This document shows, piece after piece, positions 12,471 through 39,000 of a stretch of DNA of 64,000 nucleotides. A model generated the notes under the pieces. It saw only the letters and a program-made list of their open reading frames with translations. It was not told the DNA's origin and did not search any database. The position numbers and the translations under genes were made by a program. The DNA lies in the NCBI RefSeq assembly GCF_023055435.1, contig NW_025963890.1, positions 24,304,001 to 24,368,000 on the forward strand. The letters are read 5' to 3'. The stretch comes from Haliotis rufescens (Eukaryota). Each line of letters starts with the position of its first letter. Position 1 is the stretch's first letter.

Positions 12471-12676
12471 CTTGCAGTAGCCGGAGTCCGCACTCTGGCG
12501 GAGGTGACTCTATCCATCTTGAGTCGGGGAGACAGGAGCTCCTTGGGCTTCTTACTGTGTGTCTTGGCACTCTCCCTCTGGGAGGTGACTGTGCTGGGCC
12601 GGGCATACACTCTCTTCAGTCCGACTGGTGGCGATGTTGGGGCACTGAAGTCTTCCTGACACACTGGCGCCAGCGC
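12471..12676 (-). CDS. RGS22: RGS22-like coding exon F (ALAPVCQEDFSAPTSPP...RVRTPATA), phase 0/2
   Basis: tgcag acceptor, AG|GTATCT donor, 206 nt. GC-rich coding-like composition and phase-consistent; low-conservation region. Confidence 0.78.
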
Positions 12677-12805
12677 CTGCACATGGTGGCATTTATAGTA
12701 TCATCAATGGCTATCAATTGTAAAGTAGAATAGAACAAAATGATGCCCTGTAGGTATGGGAAATATGTGTTATGATCCAAAACCATACTGTGGAGGACAC
12801 GATTG

Positions 12806-15369
12806 GTACGTGTGTCTTGTGTGACACTTACCTCTGTGATGACTGCCGTGTTTGGGCCAGAGGCACACAGATGTGGGGTCTGAAGGGAAGGATGGCTGTA
12901 GTTGGAGGGTTGGACGCGTGTCTTGTGTGACACTTACCTCTGTGATGACTGCCGTGTGTTGAGTACGAGGCACACAGATGTGGGGTCTGAAGGGAAGGAT
13001 GGCTGTAGTTGGAGGGTTGGACGCGTGTCTTGTGTGACACTTACCTCTATGATGACTGCCGTGTGTAGAGTACGAGGCACACAGATGTGGGGTCTGAAGG
13101 GAAGGATGGCTGTAGTTGGAGGGTTGGACGCGTGTCTTGTGTGACACTTACCTCTGTGATGACTGCCGTGTGTTGAGTATGAGGCACACAGATGTGGGGT
13201 CTGAAGGGAAGGATGGCTGTAGTTGGAGGGTTGGACGCGTGTCTTGTGTGACACTTACCTCTGTGATGACTGCTGTGTGTTGAGTACGAGGCACACAGAT
13301 GTGGGGTCTGAAGGGAAGGATGGCTGTAGTTGGAGGGTGGGACGTGTGTCTTGTGTGACACTTACCTCTGTGATGACTGCCGTGTGTAGAGTACGAGGCA
13401 CACAGATGTGGGGTCTGAAGGGAAGGATGGCTGTAGTTGGAGGGTGGGACGCGTGTCTTGTGTGACACTTACCTCTGTCATGACTGCCGTGTGTAGAGTA
13501 CGAGGCACACAGATGTGGGGTCTGAAGGGAAGGATGGCTGTAGTTGGAGGGTGGTACATGTGTCTTGTGTGACACTTACCTCTGTGATGACTGCTGTGTG
13601 TTGAGTACGAGGCACACAGATGTGGGGTCTGAAGGGAAGGATGGCTGTAGTTGGAGGGTTGGACGCGTGTCTTGTGTGACACTTACCTCTGTGATGACTG
13701 CCGTGTTTGGGCCAGAGGCACACAGATGTGGGGTCTGAAGGGAAGGATGGCTGTAGTTGGAGGGTTGGACGCGTGTCTTGTGTGACACTTACCTCTGTGA
13801 TGACTGCCGTGTGTAGAGTACGAGGCACACAGATGTGGGGTCTGAAGAGAAGGATGGCTGTAGTTGGAGGGTGGGACGCGTGTCTTGTGTGACACTTACC
13901 TCTGTGATGACTGCCGTGTGTAGAGTACGAGGCACACAGATGTGGGGTCTGAAGGGAAGGATGGCTGTAGTTGGAGGGTTGGACGCGTGTCTTGTGTGAC
14001 ACTTACCTCTGTGATGACTGCCGTGTTTGGGCCAGAGGCACACAGATGTGGGGTCTGAAGGGAAGGATGGCTGTAGTTGGAGGGTTGGACGCGTATCTTG
14101 TGTGACACTTACCTCTGTGATGACTGCTGTGTGTTGAGTACGAGGCACACAGATGTGGGGTCTGAAGGGAAGGATGGCTGTAGTTGGAGGGTTGGACGCG
14201 TGTCTTGTGTGACACTTACCTCTGTGATGACTGCCGTGTGTAGAGTACGAGGCACACAGATGTGGGGTCTGAAGGGAAGGATGGCTGTAGTTGGAGGGTT
14301 GGACGCGTGTCTTGTGTGACACTTACTTCTGTGATGACTGCCGTGTGTAGAGTACGAGGCACACAGATGTGGGGTCTGAAGGGAAGGATGGCTGTAGTTG
14401 GAGGGTTGGACGCGTGTCTTGTGTGACACTTACCTCTGTGATGACTGCCGTGTGTAGAGTACGAGGCACACAGATGTGGGGTCTGAAGGGAAGGATGGCT
14501 GTAGTTGGAGGGTGGGACGTGCGTCTTGTGTGACACTTACCTCTATGATGACTGCCGTGTGTAGAGTACGAGGCACACAGATGTGGGGTCTGAAGGGAAG
14601 GATGGCTGTAGTTGGAGGGTTGGACGCGTGTCTTGTGTGACACTTACCTCTGTCATGACTGCTGTGTGTTGAGTACGAGGCACACAGATGTGGGGTCTGA
14701 AGGGAAGGATGGCTGTAGTTGGAGGGTTGGACGCGTGTCTTGTGTGACACTTACCTCTGTGATGACTGCCGTGTGTAGAGTACGAGGCACACAGATGTGG
14801 GGTCTGAAGGGAAGGATGGCTGTAGTTGGAGGGTTGGACGCGTGTCTTGTGTGACACTTACCTCTGTGATGACTGCCGTGTGTAGAGTACGAGGCACACA
14901 GATGTGGGGTCTGAAGGGAAGGATGGCTGTAGTTGGAGGGTGGGACGTGCGTCTTGTGTGACACTTACCTCTATGATGACTGCCGTGTGTTGATTAGAGG
15001 CACACAGATGTGGGGTCTGAAGGGAAGGATGGCTGTAGTTGGAGGGTTGGACGCGTGTCTTGTGTGACACTTACCTCTGTGATGACTGCCGTGTGTAGAG
15101 TACGAGGCACACAGATGTGGGGTCTGAAGGGAAGGATGGCTGTAGTTGGAGGGTTGGACGCGTGTCTTGTGTGACACTTACCTCTGTGATGACTGCCGTG
15201 TGTAGAGTACGAGGCACACAGATGTGGGGTCTGAAGGGAAGGATGGCTGTAGTTGGAGGGTGGTACATGTGTCTTGTGTGACACTTACCTCTGTGATGAT
15301 TGCGGTGTGTTGAGTACGAGGCATACAGGAGCGGGGTCTGAGTGGCAGAATTACTGCAGTTGGGGGATT
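12806..15369. repeat. 107-bp satellite, ~24 copies, derived from the exon E tail plus its splice donor
   Basis: Unit = 81 nt homologous to the last 27 codons of exon E + 26 nt starting GTAAGT (minus strand). Confidence 0.97.
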
Positions 15370-15472
15370 GGGGTAGACCTCTTTCCTTCTCTTGAGTAGC
15401 TGCTGATGGTGGTACAGGTAGTATCTGTCTGGATTTGAGGGAGCCATCTGCTTCAGGAGAAATCGAGGTGCC
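15289..15472 (-). CDS. RGS22: RGS22-like coding exon E (APRFLLKQM...LPLRPRSCMPRTQHTAIITE), phase 2/0
   Basis: tttccag acceptor, GAG|GTAAGT donor, 184 nt. Splicing to exon D reconstitutes LYWAPRF; LPLRPxSC motif present. Confidence 0.88.
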
Positions 15473-15596
15473 CTGGAAATTCAATGTATAAATATGAAAA
15501 TCATGAAATCCACATTGTAAGCCAACCTAAAATTGAGTATTATGAGGTATCACAACTAAGAAATTAATACAATGCAGATATATGTTGAGTACATAC

Positions 15597-15758
15597 CAGT
15601 AGAGCACAAGAGGTTCTGCCACCTTGTTCTGAATGGACAATAGTCTGTCTACAGTCCAGCTGGACGGTTCCACCAAACCTAGCAAAGTCTTCCACTCCAT
15701 CGACAGCTCATAGGGAGACCCAGTGTGCTGGTACTTCTCACGCATGTTTGCTAAGTAA
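15597..15758 (-). CDS. RGS22: RGS22-like coding exon D (YLANMREKY...IQNKVAEPLVLY), phase 2/2
   Basis: ccttacag acceptor, GTATGT donor, 162 nt. Phase matches both neighbours (CT|T Leu, TG|G Trp). Confidence 0.9.
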
Positions 15759-16596: not shown

Positions 16597-18280
16597 GGCC
16601 CTGAGGACCCCGACAAGTCTTAAACTATGGGCCTGACAAGAGATGTACCTGCCATGAGGACCCCGACAAGTCTTAAACTATGGGCCTGACAAGAGATGTA
16701 CCTGCCATGAGGCCTCGACAAGTCTTAAACTATAGGCCTGACAAGAGATGTACCTGCGATGAGGACCCCGACAAGTCTTAAACTATGGGCCTGACAAGAG
16801 ATGTACCTGCCATGAGGCCTCGACAAGTCTTAAACTATGGGCCTGACAAGAGATGTACCTGCCATGAGGCCTCGACAAGTCTTAAACTGTGGGCCTGACA
16901 AGAGATGTACCTGCCATGAGGCCTCGACAAGTCTTAAACTATGGGCCTGACAAGAGATGTACCTGCCATGAGGCCTCGACAAGTCTTAAACTATGGGCCT
17001 GACAAGAGATGTACCTGCCATGAGGCCTCGACAAGTCTTAAACTATGGGCCTGACAAGAGATGTACCTGCCATGAGGCCTCGACAAGTCTTAAACTATAG
17101 GCCTGACAAGAGATGTACCTGCCATGAGGACCCCGACAAGTCTTAAACTATGGGCCTGACAAGAGATGTACCTGCCATGAGGCCTCGACAAGTCTTAAAC
17201 TATGGGCCTGATAAGAGATGTACCTGCCATGAGGACCCCGACAAATCTTAAACTATGGGCCTGACAAGAGATGTACCTGCCATGAGGCCTCGACAAGTCT
17301 TAAACTATGGGCCTGACAAGAGATGTACCTGCGATGAGGACCCAGACAAGTCTTAAACTCTAGGCCTGACAAGAGATGTACCTGCCATGAGGACCCAGAC
17401 AAGTCTTAAACTATGGGCCTGACAAGAGATGTACCTGCCATGAGGCCTCGACAAGTCTTAAACTATGGGCCTGACAAGAGATGTACCTGCCATGAGGCCT
17501 CGACAAGTCTCAAACTATAGGCCTGACAAGAGATGTACCTGCCATGAGGACCCCGACAAGTCTTAAACTATGGGCCTGACAAGAGATGTACCTGCCATGA
17601 GGCCTCGACAAGTCTTAAACTATGGGCCTGACAAGAGATGTACCTGCCATGAGGCCTCGACAAGTCTCAAACTATGGGCCTGATAAGAGATGTACCTGCC
17701 ATGAGGACCCCGACAAGTCTTAAACTATAGGCCTGACAAGAGATGTACCTGCCATGAGGCCTCGACAAGTCTCAAACTATGGGCCTGATAAGAGATGTAC
17801 CTGCCATGAGGACCCCGACAAGTCTTAAACTATGGGCCTGACAAGAGATGTACCTGCCATGAGGCCTCGACAAGTCTTAAACTATGGGCCTGACAAGAGA
17901 TGTACCTGCCATGAGGCCTCGACAAGTCTTAAACTATGGGCCTGACAAGAGATGTACCTGCCATGAGGCCTCGACAAGTCTTAAACTATGGGCCTGACAA
18001 GAGATGTACCTGCCATGAGGACCCCGACAAGTCTTAAACTATGGGCCTGACATGAGATGTACCTGCCATGAGGCCTCGACAAGTCTTAAACTATAGGCCT
18101 GACAAGAGATGTACCTGCCATGAGGACCCCGACAAGTCTTAAACTATGGGCCTGACAAGAGATGTACCTGCCATGAGGCCTCGACAAGTCTTAAACTATG
18201 GGCCTGACAAGAGATGTACCTGCCATGAGGCCTCGACAAGTCTTAAACTATAGTCCTGACATGAGATGTACCTGCCATGG
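16597..18280. repeat. 52/53-bp minisatellite, ~32 copies
   Basis: Unit GAGGCCTCGACAAGTCTTAAACTATGGGCCTGACAAGAGATGTACCTGCCAT; variant GAGGACCCCGAC. Confidence 0.97.
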
Positions 18281-18329
18281 ACCTAAGGGCAGGCGTATAT
18301 TTCAAACACTACCACAAATCAGTACTTAC

Positions 18330-22299: not shown

Positions 22300-23810
22300 T
22301 ACCCAATGTTACAGGGTCCTGACACTATGATGGGACTGAATCACCCAATGCTATAGGGTCCTGACTTTATGATGGGACTGAATCACCCAATGTTACAGGG
22401 TCCTGACACTATGATGGGACTGAATCACCCAATGTTACAGGGTCCTGACACTATGATGGGACTGAATCACCCAATGCTACAGGGTCCTGACACTATGATG
22501 GGACTGAATCACCCAATGTTACAGGGTCCTGACTCTATGATGGGACTGAATCACCCAATGCTACAGGGTCCTGACACTCTGATGGGACTGAATCACCCAA
22601 TGCTACAGGGTCCTGACTCTATGATGGGACTGAATCACCCAATGCTACAGGGTCCTGACTCTATGATGGGACTGAAATCACCCAATGCTACAGGGTCCTG
22701 ACACTATGATGGGACTGAATCACCCAATGCTACAGGGTCCTGACACTATGATGGGACTGAATCACCCAATGCTACAGGGTCCTGACTCTATGATGGGACT
22801 GAATCACCCAATGCTACAGGGTCCTGACTCTATGATGGGACTGAAATCACCCAATGCTACAGGGTCCTGTCTCTATGATGGGGCTGAAATCACTAAATGC
22901 TACAGGGTCCTGTCTCTATGATGGGACTGAATCACCCAATGCTACAGGGTCCTGACTCAATGATGGGACTGAAATCATCCAATGTTACAGGGTCCTGACT
23001 TTATGATGGGACTGAATCACCCAATGTTACAGGGTCCTGACTCTATGATGGGACTGAATCACCCAATGCTACAGGGTCCTGACTCTATGATGGGGCTGAA
23101 TCACCCAATGTTACAGGGTCCTGACTCTATGATGGGACTGAAATCACCCAATGCTACAGGGTCCTGACTCTATGATGGGACTGAAATCACCCAATGCTAC
23201 AGGGCTATGACGCTATGATGGGACTGAATCACCCAATGCTACAGGGTCCTGACTCTATGATGGGACTGAAATCACCCAATGGTACAGGGTCCTGACACTA
23301 TGATGGGACTGAAATCACCCAATGCTATAGGGCTATGACGCTATGATGGGACTGAAATCACCCAATGCTACAGGTCAATGTGACGCTATGATGGGACTGA
23401 AATCACCCAATGCTACAGGTCCATGTGACACTATGATGGGACTGAAATCACCCAATGCTACAGGGCTATGACGCTATGATGGGACTGAAATCACCCAATG
23501 GTACAGGGTCCTGACCCTATGACGGGACTGAAATCACCAAATGCTACAGAGCTATGACGCTATGATGGGACTGAAATCACCCAATGCTACAGGTCCATGT
23601 GACGCTATGATGGGACTGAAATCACCCAATGCTACAGGTCCATGTGACTCTATGATGGGACTGAAATCACCTAATGCTACAGGGCTATGACGCTATGATG
23701 GGACTGAAATCACCCAATGCTACAGTGCTATGATGCTATGATGGGACTGAAATCACCCAATGGTACAGGACAATGATGCTGTGATGGGACTGAAATCACC
23801 CAATGCTATC
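22300..23810. repeat. 42/43-bp minisatellite, ~35 copies
   Basis: Unit CCCAATGCTACAGGGTCCTGACTCTATGATGGGACTGAA(A)TCA; diverges toward the right end. Confidence 0.97.
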
Positions 23811-26469: not shown

Positions 26470-28725
26470 TGACTGGCTACTCACAGTGAGAGTGTATGGG
26501 GCAGGGGTGACTGGCTACTCACAGTGAGAGTGTATGTGGTAGGGGTGACTGGCTACACACAGTGAGAGTGTATGGGGCAGGGGTGACTGGCTACTCACAG
26601 TGAGAGTGTATGTGGTAGGGGTGACTGGCTGCTCACAGTGAGAGTGTATGTGGTAGGGGTGACTGGCTACTCACAGTGAGAGTGTATGTTGTAGGGTGAG
26701 TGGCTACACACAGTGAGAGTGTATGTGGTAGGGGTGACTGGCTACACACAGTGAGAGTGTATGTGGTAGGGGTGACTGGCTACACACAGTGAGAGTGTAT
26801 GTGGTAGGGGTGACTGGCTTCTCACAGTGAGAGTGTATGTGGTAGGGGTAACTGGCTACACACAGTGAGAGTGTATGTGGTAGGGGTGACTGGCTACACA
26901 CAGTGAGAGTGTATGTGGTAGGGGTAACTGGCTACACACAGTGAGAGTGTATGTGGTAGGGGTGACTGGCTTCTCACAGTGAGAGTGTATGTGGTAGGGG
27001 TAACTGGCTACACACAGTGAGAGTGTATGTGGTAGGGGTGACTGGCTACACACAGTGAGAGTGTATGTGGTAGGGGTGACTGGCTTCTCACAGTGAAAGT
27101 GTATGTGGTAGGGGTGACTGGCTTCTCACAGTGAGAGTGTATGTGGTAGGGGTGACTGGCTACTCACAGTGAGAGTGTATGTGGTAGGAGTGACTGGCTA
27201 CACACAGTGAGAGTGTATGGGGCAGGGGTGACTGGCTACACACAGTGAGTGTGTATGTGGTAGGGGTGACTGGCTTCTCACAGTGAGAGTGTATGTGGTA
27301 GGGGTGACTGGCTACACACAGTGAGAGTGTATGTGGTAGGGGTGACTGGCTACACACAGTGAGAGTGTATGTGGTAGGGGTGACTGGCTACACACAGTGA
27401 GAGTGTATGTGGTAGGGGTGACTGGCTACACACAGTAAGAGTGTATGTGGTAGGGGTGACTGGCTACACACAGTGAGAGTGTATGTGGTAGGGGTAACTG
27501 GCTACACACAGTGAGAGTGTATGTGGTAGGGGTGACTGGCTACACACAGTGAGAGTGTATGTGGTAGGGGTAACTGGCTACACACAGTGAGAGTGTATGT
27601 GGTAGGGGTGACTGGCTACTCACAGTGAGAGTGTATGTGGTAGGGGTGACTGGCTTCTCACAGTGAGAGTGTATGTGGTAGGGGTGACTGGCTACACACA
27701 GTGAGAGTGTATGTGGTAGGGGTGACTGGCTACACACAGTGAGAGTGTATGTGGTAGGGGTGACTGGCTTCTCACAGTGAGAGTGTATGTGGTAGGGGTG
27801 ACTGGCTACACACAGTGAGTGTGTATGTGGTAGGGGTGACTGGCTACACACAGTGAGAGTGTATGTGGTAGGGGTGACTGGCTTCTCACAGTGAGAGTGT
27901 ATGTGGTAGGGGTGACTGGCTACTCACAGTGAGAGTGTATGTGGTAGGAGTGACTGGCTACACACAGTGAGAGTGTATGTGGTAGGGGTGACTGGCTTCT
28001 CACAGTGAGAGTGTATGTGGTAGGGGTAACTGGCTACACACAGTGAGAGTGTATGTGGTAGGGGTGACTGGCTACTCACAGTGAGAGTGTATGTGGTAGG
28101 AGTGACTGGCTACACACAGTGAGAGTGTATGGGGCAGGGGTGACTGGCTACACACAGTGAGAGTGTATGTGGTAGGGGTGACTGGCTTCTCACAGTGAGA
28201 GTGTATGTGGTAGGGGTGACTGGCTACACACAGTGAGAGTGTATGTGGTAGGGGTGACTGGCTACACACAGTGAGAGTGTATGTGGTAGGGGTGACTGGC
28301 TACTCACAGTGAGAGTGTATGTGGTAGGGGTGACTGGCTACTTACAGCGAGAGTGTATGTGGTAGGGGTGACTGGCTACACACAGTGAGAGTGTATGTGG
28401 TAGGGGTGACTGGCTACACACAGTGAGAGTGTATGTGGTAGGGGTAACTGGCTTCTCACAGTGAGTGTGTATGTGGTAGGGGTGACTGGCTACACACAGT
28501 GAGAGTGTATGTGGTAGGGGTAACTGGCTACACACAGTGAGAGTGTATGTGGTAGGGGTAACTGGCTACACACAGTGAGAGTGTATGTGGTAGGGGTAAC
28601 TGGCTACACACAGTGAGAGTGTATGTGGTAGGGGTGACTGGCTACTCACAGTGAGAGTGTATGTGGTAGGGGTGACTGGCTATACACAGTGAGAGTGTAT
28701 GTGGTAGGGGTGACTGGCTACACAC
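26470..28725. repeat. 38-bp minisatellite, ~59 copies
   Basis: Unit GTGACTGGCTACACACAGTGAGAGTGTATGTGGTAGGG. Confidence 0.97.
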
Positions 28726-29585
28726 AGTGAGAGTGTATGGGACAGGAGGCTTCTCACTGACAGTGAGAGTGTATGGGACAGGAGGCTACTCACTGACAGT
28801 GAGTGTGTATGGGACAGGAGGCTTCTCACTGACAGTGAGAGTGTATGGGACAGGAGGCTACTCACTGACAGTGAGAGTGTATGGGACAGGAGGCTACTCA
28901 CTGACAGTGAGAGTGTTTTGGACAGGAGGCTACTCACTGACAGTGAGAGTGTATGGGACAGGAGGCTACTCACTGACAGTGAGAGTGTATGGGACAGGAG
29001 GCTACTCACTGACAGTGAGAGTGTATGGGACAGGAGGCTTCTCACTGACAGTGAGAGTGTATGGGACAGGAGGCTACTCACTGACAGTGAGAGTGTATGG
29101 GACAGGAGGCTACTCACTGACAGTGAGAGTGTATGGGACAGGAGGCTTCTCACTGACAGTGAGAGTGTATGGGACAGGAGGCTTCTCACTGACAGTGAGT
29201 GTGTATGGGACATGAGGCTACTCACTGACAGTGAGAGTGTATGGGACAGGAGGCTACTCACTGACAGTGAGTGTGTATGGGACAGGAGGCTTCTCACTGA
29301 CAGTGAGAGTGTATGGGACAGGAGGCTACTCACTGACAGTGAGAGTGTATGGGACAGGAGGCTATTCACTGACAGTGAGAGTGTATGGGACAGGAGGCTA
29401 CTCACTGACAGTGAGAGTGTATGGGACAGGAGGCTACTCACTGACAGTGAGAGTGTATGGGACAGGAGGCTACTCACTGACAGTGAGAGTGTATGGGACA
29501 GGAGGCTACTCACTGACAGTGAGACTGTATGGGACAGGAGGCTACCCACTGACAGTGAGAGTGTATGGGCCAGGAGGCTACTCAC
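28726..29585. repeat. 36-bp minisatellite, ~24 copies, starting at the exon A donor
   Basis: Unit GACAGGAGGCTACTCACTGACAGTGAGAGTGTATGG; on the minus strand each unit starts GTGAG(T/A). Confidence 0.97.
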
Positions 29586-38232: not shown

Positions 38233-39000
38233 TGTCCCAAACAGTTTATAGTGTCATATAGAGTCTGTCCCAAACACACTGTATAGTGTCATATACAGAC
38301 TGTCCCAAACACACTGTAGAGTGTCATATAGAGACTGTCCCAAACACACAGTACGGTGTCATATACAGACTGTCCCAAACACACTTGTCATATAGAGACT
38401 GTCCCAAACACACTGTACAGTGTCATATAGAGACTGTCCCAAACACACAATACAGTGTCATATAAAGACTGTCCCAAACACACAGTACAGTGTCATATAG
38501 AGACTGTCCCAAACACACTTGTCATATAGAGACTGTCCCAAACACACTGTACAGTGTCATATAGAGACTGTCCCAAACACACTGTATAGTGTCATATAGA
38601 GACTGTCCCAAACACACAATACAGTGTCATATAAAGACTGTCCCAAACACACAGTACAGTGTCATATAGAGACTGTCCCAAACACACAGTACAGTGTCAT
38701 ATAGAGACTATCCCAAAAACACTTGTCATATAGAGACTGTCCCAAACACACTTGTCATATAGAGACTGTCCCAAACACACTGTATATTGTCATATAGAGA
38801 CTGTCCCAAACACACTGTACAGTGTCATATAGAGACTATCCCAAACACACTGTACAGTGTCATATAGAGACTGTTTCCAACACACTGTACAGTGTCATAT
38901 AGAGACACTGTGTGTTTGGGACAGTCTCTATATGACACTGTACAGTGTGCTTGGGATAGTCTCTATATGACATTGCACAGTGTGTTTGGGACAGTCTCTA
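38233..39000. repeat. 35-bp (and 28-bp variant) minisatellite with an inverted terminal segment
   Basis: Unit GTCATATAGAGACTGTCCCAAACACACTGTACAGT; orientation flips at ~38906. Confidence 0.95.

What the first reader, a model, noticed from the sequence alone, without database searches (positions are those of the whole stretch)
12806..15369. 107-bp satellite built from the last 27 codons of exon E plus its donor: 23 strong decoy donors
Seen: unit = 81 nt paralogous to NPPTAVILPLRPRSCMPRTQHTAIITE (array reads NPPTTAILPFRPHICVPRTLHTAVITE) plus 26 nt of intron. GAG|GTAAGT is therefore repeated 23 more times (one copy is GAA|GTAAGT), identical to the real donor. Each unit also has acceptor-like CCATCCTTCCCTTCAG and ACTACAG, defining potential 49- or 65-nt pseudo-exons. 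Using the second donor shifts frame, and reading past it hits TAA at 15178-15180. Inference: the spliceosome must pick the first of 24 near-equal donors, or the array acts as a poison-exon/NMD sink, U1 sponge or recursive-splicing ladder modulating RGS22 output.
Basis: partly seen in the sequence, partly recalled or inferred. Interest (0 to 1): 0.7.

Follow-up and report, generated by a model that had tools for sequence, protein, structure and literature searches.

The report
Repeated splice donor in abalone RGS22
In an abalone RGS22-like gene, the end of one exon and its splice signal are copied 23 more times into the next intron, but every assembled transcript examined cuts at the first signal, so this is likely a tolerated repeat of a kind already known from human and lancelet genes rather than a regulator.

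Summary
A 107-bp unit (last 81 nt of exon E plus 26 nt of intron) fills 12806-15369 on the minus strand of an RGS22-like gene, most like Haliotis rufescens, and gives 24 GTAAGT donors. The regulatory reading is not supported. Spliced contigs from 6 of 6 RNA-type runs (3 studies, 2 organisms) and 8 of 8 full-length Haliotis protein models join the first donor (15288) to 12676. No array-type or read-through RNA contig was laid. The copies break a motif conserved in 42 of 42 homologues, 4 of 23 carry 1-nt deletions, and their donors are no better kept than the rest of the unit. A relative's DNA holds the same array. This is the known exon-border minisatellite (human F7, 6-16, CBS, LMNB2, PDGF, ABCA7; lancelet 'mirages'). 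The scan has noted it many times before, in this genome and others, and a second intron of this gene starts with a donor-bearing array too. Contigs drop rare forms and every single alternative checked ends in a premature stop, so a low-level leak that NMD would remove is not excluded.

The parts
15289..15472 (-). Exon E of the RGS22-like gene (184 nt); its last 81 nt (15369-15289) are the founding copy of the repeat and encode the conserved PLRP[KR][ST]C motif
   Evidence: tblastn of Haliotis RGS22-like proteins; spliced contigs; alignment of 42 homologues
15283..15291 (-). True 5' splice site GAG|GTAAGT (G of GT at 15288), the one seen in use
   Evidence: loose ends of RNA contigs; diagnostic letters match only this copy
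12806..15262 (-). 23 further copies of the unit (19 of 107 nt, 4 of 106 nt), each ending in a pseudo-donor plus 26 intron-type nt; pseudo-donor GT at 15181 ... 12831
15178..15180 (-). In-frame TAA inside the second donor; ends any read-through past donor 2
15366..15371 (-). 6-nt microhomology (CCAATC) at the upstream edge of the array
12801..12806 (-). Same 6-nt microhomology at the downstream edge; the spacing implies a founding duplication of 108 nt (inferred)
12471..12676 (-). Exon F; its acceptor (8 pyrimidines of 16) receives the first donor
15596..15758 (-). Exon D, joined to exon E across a 124-nt skip in 3 of 3 RNA-type runs

Best explanation
This is an intronic minisatellite whose first unit spans the exon E/intron border of an RGS22-like gene; the assembled transcripts splice from the first donor, and the 23 extra donors are likely silent passengers of a repeat that probably arose by slippage between two short matching words and grew by unequal crossing-over. 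Shown: the anatomy, use of the first donor, decay of the coding sense in the copies, presence of the array in a relative. Inferred: (1) birth by a local duplication between the two CCAATC words; (2) expansion and homogenisation of the interior, with the exon copy left out over its 5' half; (3) occasional exchange between the exon copy's 3' half and the array, which keeps the donor region alike without selection on the decoys; (4) choice of the first donor because it is the first one downstream of exon E's acceptor and defines a 184-nt exon (exon definition / 5'-to-3' scanning, as tested for F7 in PMC1557585); (5) any rare mis-splice has a premature stop and would be removed by NMD.
For: RNA: in 3 of 3 RNA-type runs laid on exon F, the single contig continues at the acceptor with 30 letters that match only the exon copy (0 differences; 2-10 differences to each of the 23 array copies). 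In 3 of 3 other runs laid on exon E at 80% likeness, the single contig leaves at 15288 into exon F, and no array-type or read-through contig was laid, while the DNA run laid in the same call gave 2 array-type contigs, so the lay can detect them. Protein models: 8 of 8 full-length Haliotis proteins join E to F directly, and the 5 H. rufescens isoforms differ only elsewhere. No coding constraint on copies: 8 amino-acid changes in 27 codons against the majority unit, 7 of them on the array side by comparison with three other Haliotis species; the motif kept in 42 of 42 homologues is broken; 4 of 23 copies have a 1-nt deletion. No special donor conservation: 55 of 107 six-column windows of the unit are invariant among the 23 copies. 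Setting: 18 long minisatellite arrays cover 45% of the window, and another intron of this gene begins with a donor-bearing array. Mosaic units: 13 of 15 fixed exon/array differences lie in the first 46 of 107 nt (post hoc p 0.0003; longest difference-free run p 0.015); 4 copies carry the same letters at unit positions 59, 66 and 70 as the relative's exon, and one copy shares the first copy's intron variant.
Against: Logan contigs drop rare variants and no raw mRNA reads or NMD-blocked samples were available, so a leak of a few per cent would be invisible. The stretch around the donor (unit positions 71-101) has no fixed difference between exon copy and array, which selection on decoys would also produce. 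Predicted folding does not hide the decoys: 22 of 23 are predicted more accessible than the true donor (0.19-0.36 against 0.18). Exon F's real acceptor is poorer in pyrimidines (8 of 16) than the array's pseudo-acceptors (11-12 of 16). In human 6-16, CBS and ABCA7 the next one or two donors are used at some level (PMC1557585, PMC5954066).
Confidence: 0.82

Rival explanations
1. Leaky or length-sensitive repeat, as in ABCA7, 6-16 or CBS: the first donor dominates, but donor 2 is used at low level or long alleles promote skipping of exon F, so array length acts as an unselected quantitative variant of RGS22 output through NMD.
For: Donor 2 is identical from -11 to +20 and its use gives a stop 58 nt into exon F. 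Exon F's acceptor is weak. ABCA7: one-unit retention and VNTR-length-dependent skipping of the downstream exon (PMC5954066 passages). The relative's DNA gave only three contigs with modest depth, a weak hint of a shorter array (the tool warns depth is no copy number).
Against: 0 of 6 RNA-type runs gave such a contig; none of 5 H. rufescens isoform models differs here. F7, LMNB2, PDGF and lancelet mirages use only the true site.
Confidence: 0.13
2. Selected regulatory device: poison-exon sink, U1 sponge or recursive-splicing ladder that tunes RGS22.
For: 24 strong donors (8 of 9 consensus positions, as good as any in the gene); C-rich AG sites 49 and 65 nt upstream of each; single pseudo-exon inclusion ends in a premature stop; the array is shared with a relative.
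Against: No array-derived RNA contig. Donor columns are not more conserved than the rest of the unit. Both AGs already exist in the coding copy, and 18 of 357 YAG sites in this gene's non-repeat introns have 12 or more pyrimidines. A recursive site needs AG directly followed by GT (recalled definition); here the AG before each GT is the exon's GAG end, with 8 of 16 pyrimidines upstream. The 2.6-kb intron is short for recursive splicing (recalled: described for very long introns). The same layout recurs in unrelated genes of this genome (AI notes, unchecked).
Confidence: 0.04
3. Assembly artefact: the copy number or the array itself is a product of mis-assembly.
For: Tandem arrays can be mis-sized in assemblies; some units are identical.
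Against: 18 distinct unit sequences among 24; array-type contigs and both array edges occur in a DNA run of another organism.
Confidence: 0.01

Closest known systems
Human F7 intron 7 37-bp VNTR, with 6-16 (IFI6, 25 pseudo-sites), CBS intron 13, LMNB2 (100 bp x 10-15) and PDGF intron 4 (81 bp x 16-18) as cited there (PMC1557585; seen: parts 1 and 4 of 6, i.e. abstract, synopsis, introduction, end of results, first part of discussion; the primary papers on the other four were not read)
   Same: First unit spans an exon-intron border; the donor is repeated down the intron; the most upstream donor is used. LMNB2 and PDGF have similar unit lengths and 6-16 a similar number of pseudo-donors.
   Different: Mollusc gene; 81 nt of coding sequence per unit (F7 has 4); the exon copy has diverged to 81% from the array; use of donors 2-3, seen in 6-16 and CBS, was not seen here in contigs; length polymorphism not shown here.
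Lancelet 'mirages' (Adh3, troponin C, globins BflGb6/BflGb9, PGBD5) (PMC3087553 and PMC3902484; seen: passages)
   Same: Tandem copies of an exon-intron boundary in an invertebrate; long units (150-160 bp in the globins); concerted evolution of the interior with the boundary copies excluded; no interference with normal splicing reported.
   Different: More copies (24 against 3-6 for BflGb6); different phylum; haplotype and somatic instability not tested here.
Human ABCA7 intron 18 25-bp VNTR (PMC5954066; seen: passages)
   Same: Repeat begins at the donor and repeats it; one-unit retention would shift frame; about 24 copies in the reference.
   Different: ABCA7 shows measurable one-unit retention and length-dependent skipping of the next exon; neither is seen here, and the data to test length dependence were not available. 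The ABCA7 unit starts at the GT, which is closer to the second array of this gene (28724-29585).

Membership tests
Exon-border minisatellite ('mirage' / F7-type) | Head-to-tail tandem array whose first unit spans an exon-intron boundary | tested here: met
   exon border
Exon-border minisatellite ('mirage' / F7-type) | Splice signal reiterated in the copies | tested here: met
   23 of 23 copies keep GTAAGT
Exon-border minisatellite ('mirage' / F7-type) | Authentic site used, copies silent or minor | tested here: met
   6 of 6 RNA-type runs, contigs only; 8 of 8 full-length protein models
Exon-border minisatellite ('mirage' / F7-type) | Concerted evolution of interior copies with the boundary copy excluded | tested here: met
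   array-array 96%, exon-array 81%; last copy is also the most distant of the 23
Exon-border minisatellite ('mirage' / F7-type) | Variable copy number between alleles (VNTR) | tested here: inconclusive
   only one assembly; a relative's contig depths hint at fewer copies but are no copy number
Poison exon / AS-NMD element | Inclusion would create a premature stop | tested here: met
   (computed on the sequence; single alternatives only)
Poison exon / AS-NMD element | Inclusion isoform is observed | tested here: not met
   0 of 6 RNA-type runs; contigs drop rare forms
Poison exon / AS-NMD element | Inclusion rises when NMD is blocked, and is regulated | not testable with these tools
   no such runs listed
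Poison exon / AS-NMD element | Splice signals conserved beyond neutral expectation | tested here: not met
   55 of 107 six-column windows are as invariant as the donor hexamer
Recursive splice site (definition recalled) | Pyrimidine tract plus AG directly followed by GT, inside a very long intron | tested here: not met
   AG before each GT is the GAG exon end with 8 of 16 pyrimidines; intron 2612 nt
Recursive splice site (definition recalled) | Intermediates or saw-tooth coverage in nascent RNA | not testable with these tools
   only contigs and small-RNA raw reads were listed

The most novel reading that the evidence does not exclude
The array is a length-tunable splicing rheostat and a sequence reservoir for a ciliary/sperm gene: a founding in-frame 108-nt duplication lost one base so that every slip to a downstream donor now feeds NMD, allele length sets how much RGS22 message is lost (as for ABCA7), and recombination swaps sequence between the array and the poorly constrained 3' end of exon E while the conserved motif upstream blocks it.
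Probability: 0.07. Interest if true: 0.5.

Novelty: new member of a known kind. Interest (0 to 1): 0.13.

Why it matters
As it stands it matters little: it is one more exon-border minisatellite, showing that first-donor choice also holds in a mollusc with 23 competitors identical from about -11 to +20. It is a clean natural substrate for testing 5' splice-site scanning outside mammals, because the real and decoy copies can be told apart by letters at -12 and -16. It would matter more if array length changed RGS22 output, since mouse RGS22 is a radial-spoke component needed for coordinated ciliary beating (PMC13443885, abstract; a section heading also names impaired sperm motility) and abalone are farmed; no evidence for that was found.

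Tried and rejected
No RNA holder was listed as on record as RNA; the runs used are 'RNA?' guesses, accepted as spliced cDNA because their contigs skip introns that the DNA runs contain. Structural masking of decoys: rejected as the reason for first-donor use, since predicted accessibility is not lower for decoys. Stronger first donor: rejected, the 9-mer is the same in 22 of 23 copies. Coding use of the copies: rejected. Idea that the array evolved a better pyrimidine tract: the three purine/pyrimidine differences there are at third codon positions and could not be polarised; left open. Copy number from contig depth in the relative: not accepted, the tool states depth is no copy number. Frame columns of the first table used an exon start one base off and were replaced; the pseudo-exon lengths and translations do not depend on that start. 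Literature: a search for Haliotis + minisatellite + intron + tandem repeats gave 2 papers, neither relevant by title and abstract start; a five-term VNTR/NMD search gave 1 irrelevant paper; the 10 listed of 222 RGS22 papers do not concern this repeat by title. These searches cover only the held library. PMC10078293 and PMC2812944 were seen as passages only and add general context. No supplements were opened. No splice-site scoring program was available; donor and acceptor strength are simple consensus and pyrimidine counts.

Full report
Observation. The array is as described. Tandem Repeats Finder gives period 107, 23.8 copies, 95% matches at 12803-15341. On the minus strand there are 24 GTAAGT donors, with the G of GT from 15288 to 12831; 23 are GAG|GTAAGT (the real one and 22 copies) and one is GAA|GTAAGT. 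Each unit is 81 exon-like nt plus 26 intron nt; 19 of the 23 array units are 107 nt and 4 are 106 nt. Donor 2 would add 107 nt and stop 58 nt into exon F; donors 3-24 all include the TAA at 15180-15178. A single 49- or 65-nt pseudo-exon would also shift frame and stop in exon F. A DNA search of the own genome scored one candidate region and found 23 matches, all within this array (lower bound).

The gene. The large upstream exon finds 35 RGS22-like proteins, best a Haliotis rubra protein. Its cluster has 9 members, 8 full length, from four Haliotis species; the H. rufescens isoform X1 matches the window at 1162 of 1190 aligned residues. Exon E is 15472-15289 and exon F 12676-12471. All 8 full-length models join E directly to F, and the five H. 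rufescens isoforms differ only in other regions. These are gene models, not independent proof. Mouse RGS22 is a radial-spoke component of motile cilia (PMC13443885, abstract and outline seen).

Which donor is used. The run search listed 14 RNA-type holders (RNA status guessed by the tool), 4 DNA-like holders and 6 additions, nearly all as assembled contigs. On the exon F flank, 3 of 3 RNA-type runs (X1, X3, X6; two studies) gave one contig each, which skips the F/G intron and continues at the exon F acceptor with 30 letters. These match the exon copy exactly and differ from each of the 23 array copies at 2-10 places. On the exon E flank, at 80% likeness, 3 of 3 further runs (X5, X7, and X10 from another organism) gave one contig each, which joins D to E across a 124-nt skip and leaves at 15288 into exon F. 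No RNA contig read through the donor or carried array-type letters. The DNA run in the same call gave two array-type contigs, so the lay could detect them. Limit: contigs show presence, not absence, and transcripts with premature stops would be depleted.

History of the array. The copies are 96% identical to each other and 81% to the exon copy. Against the majority unit the exon differs by 8 amino acids in 27 codons. Seven are changes on the array side, because H. rubra, H. asinina and H. cracherodii keep the exon's residue. One, I24, is a change in the exon: the array and those three species have V, as does the exon of organism D. The first half of the unit encodes PLRP[KR][ST]C, present in 42 of 42 full-length homologues across molluscs, nemerteans, an annelid and a brachiopod; the array breaks it in every copy. 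So the copies are not under coding constraint, and the array was seeded before the V-to-I change. Organism D's DNA holds array-type units and the same downstream edge (compared by eye), so the array predates that split. The word CCAATC sits at both edges, 15371-15366 and 12806-12801, which suggests a founding duplication of 108 nt between two microhomologies, later shortened by one base (inferred).

Are the decoys kept by selection? Among the 23 copies, 17 of 107 columns vary; 55 of 107 six-column windows are invariant and 68 of 107 nine-column windows have at most one variable column. Intact donors are therefore what homogenisation alone gives. One result points the other way: 13 of the 15 fixed exon/array differences lie in the first 46 nt and none in positions 71-107 (post hoc p 0.0003; longest-run p 0.015). 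Exchange explains this without selection: four copies (14647, 14112, 13579, 13258) have array-type first halves but the same letters at unit positions 59, 66 and 70 as organism D's exon, and the copy at 13579 shares the first copy's intron variant and the following junction. This is inference; selection on decoys is not formally excluded.

Pseudo-acceptors and structure. The two AGs are inherited from the coding sequence (15337 and 15353 in the exon copy). In the array they have 12 and 11 pyrimidines of 16, but only 4 and 3 T; 18 of 357 YAG sites in this gene's non-repeat introns reach 12. From an adjacent donor they would bound introns of only 58 or 42 nt. Exon F's real acceptor has 8 of 16 pyrimidines, which is a point in favour of possible leak. 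Predicted local folding leaves 22 of 23 decoys more accessible than the real donor, so masking is not the reason for first-donor use. Position is the likely reason.

Setting. Eighteen long minisatellite arrays cover 29,096 of 64,000 bases. A 36-bp array starts exactly at the donor of another exon of this gene (29585), and with its 38-bp neighbour places 25 more GTGAGT hexamers in that intron. The scan's earlier notes hold 25 findings with these words in at least 20 genomes (8 shown) and 47 that fit in this genome (8 shown). They are unchecked AI notes and are not counted as support; one led me to the lancelet papers, which I then read as passages.

Known kinds. PMC1557585 (parts 1 and 4 of 6 read) describes human minisatellites whose first unit spans an exon-intron border: F7, 6-16 (25 pseudo-sites, two proximal ones also used), CBS (two also used), LMNB2 (100-bp unit, only the true site) and PDGF (81-bp unit, likewise), and shows by mutation that the most upstream functional donor wins. 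PMC3087553 and PMC3902484 (passages) describe lancelet 'mirages', with concerted evolution that excludes the boundary copies and no aberrant mRNA. PMC5954066 (passages) is the case where such a VNTR matters: ABCA7 shows one-unit retention and length-dependent skipping of the next exon. The abalone array meets the defining features of this kind, except length polymorphism, which could not be shown.

Verdict. Real, correctly described, and a new member of a known kind. Most likely a tolerated repeat with silent pseudo-donors (0.82); low-level or length-dependent leak (0.13); selected regulatory device (0.04). Interest 0.13.

Noticed in passing
window 28724-29585 and 26470-28775, minus strand: A 36-bp array starts exactly at the donor (CCG|GTGAGT, 29585) of an upstream RGS22 exon and repeats GTGAGT 15 more times; the adjoining 38-bp array, which looks derived from it, has 10 more. 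Second donor-bearing array in the same gene, ABCA7-like in that the unit starts at the GT.
   Followed up: partly
whole window: 18 long minisatellite arrays (units 17-123 bp) cover 45% of the 64 kb, with strong strand skews.
   Followed up: partly
window 15300: The exon encodes I where the array, three other Haliotis species and organism D have V: the array preserves the older state of the exon.
   Followed up: yes
window about 12748, minus strand: An AG with a better-looking pyrimidine tract lies about 71 nt upstream of exon F's weak real acceptor (read); it would be out of frame and was not seen in the contigs.
   Followed up: partly
window 38250-39000: A 35-bp array is followed directly by about 2.7 copies of its reverse complement, a possible fold-back.
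   Followed up: no
window 22301-23808, plus strand: A 42-bp array, antisense within an RGS22 intron, gives Met-rich open frames of 14-residue repeats; probably incidental.
   Followed up: no
window 16598-18279: A 52-bp array begins about 50 nt downstream of the donor at 18329 and carries an AG|GTACAT word in each unit; it is not exon-derived.
   Followed up: partly
upstream of window 29651: H. rufescens models have two alternative N-termini; the first 20 residues of isoform X1 were not located in the window by tblastn.
   Followed up: partly
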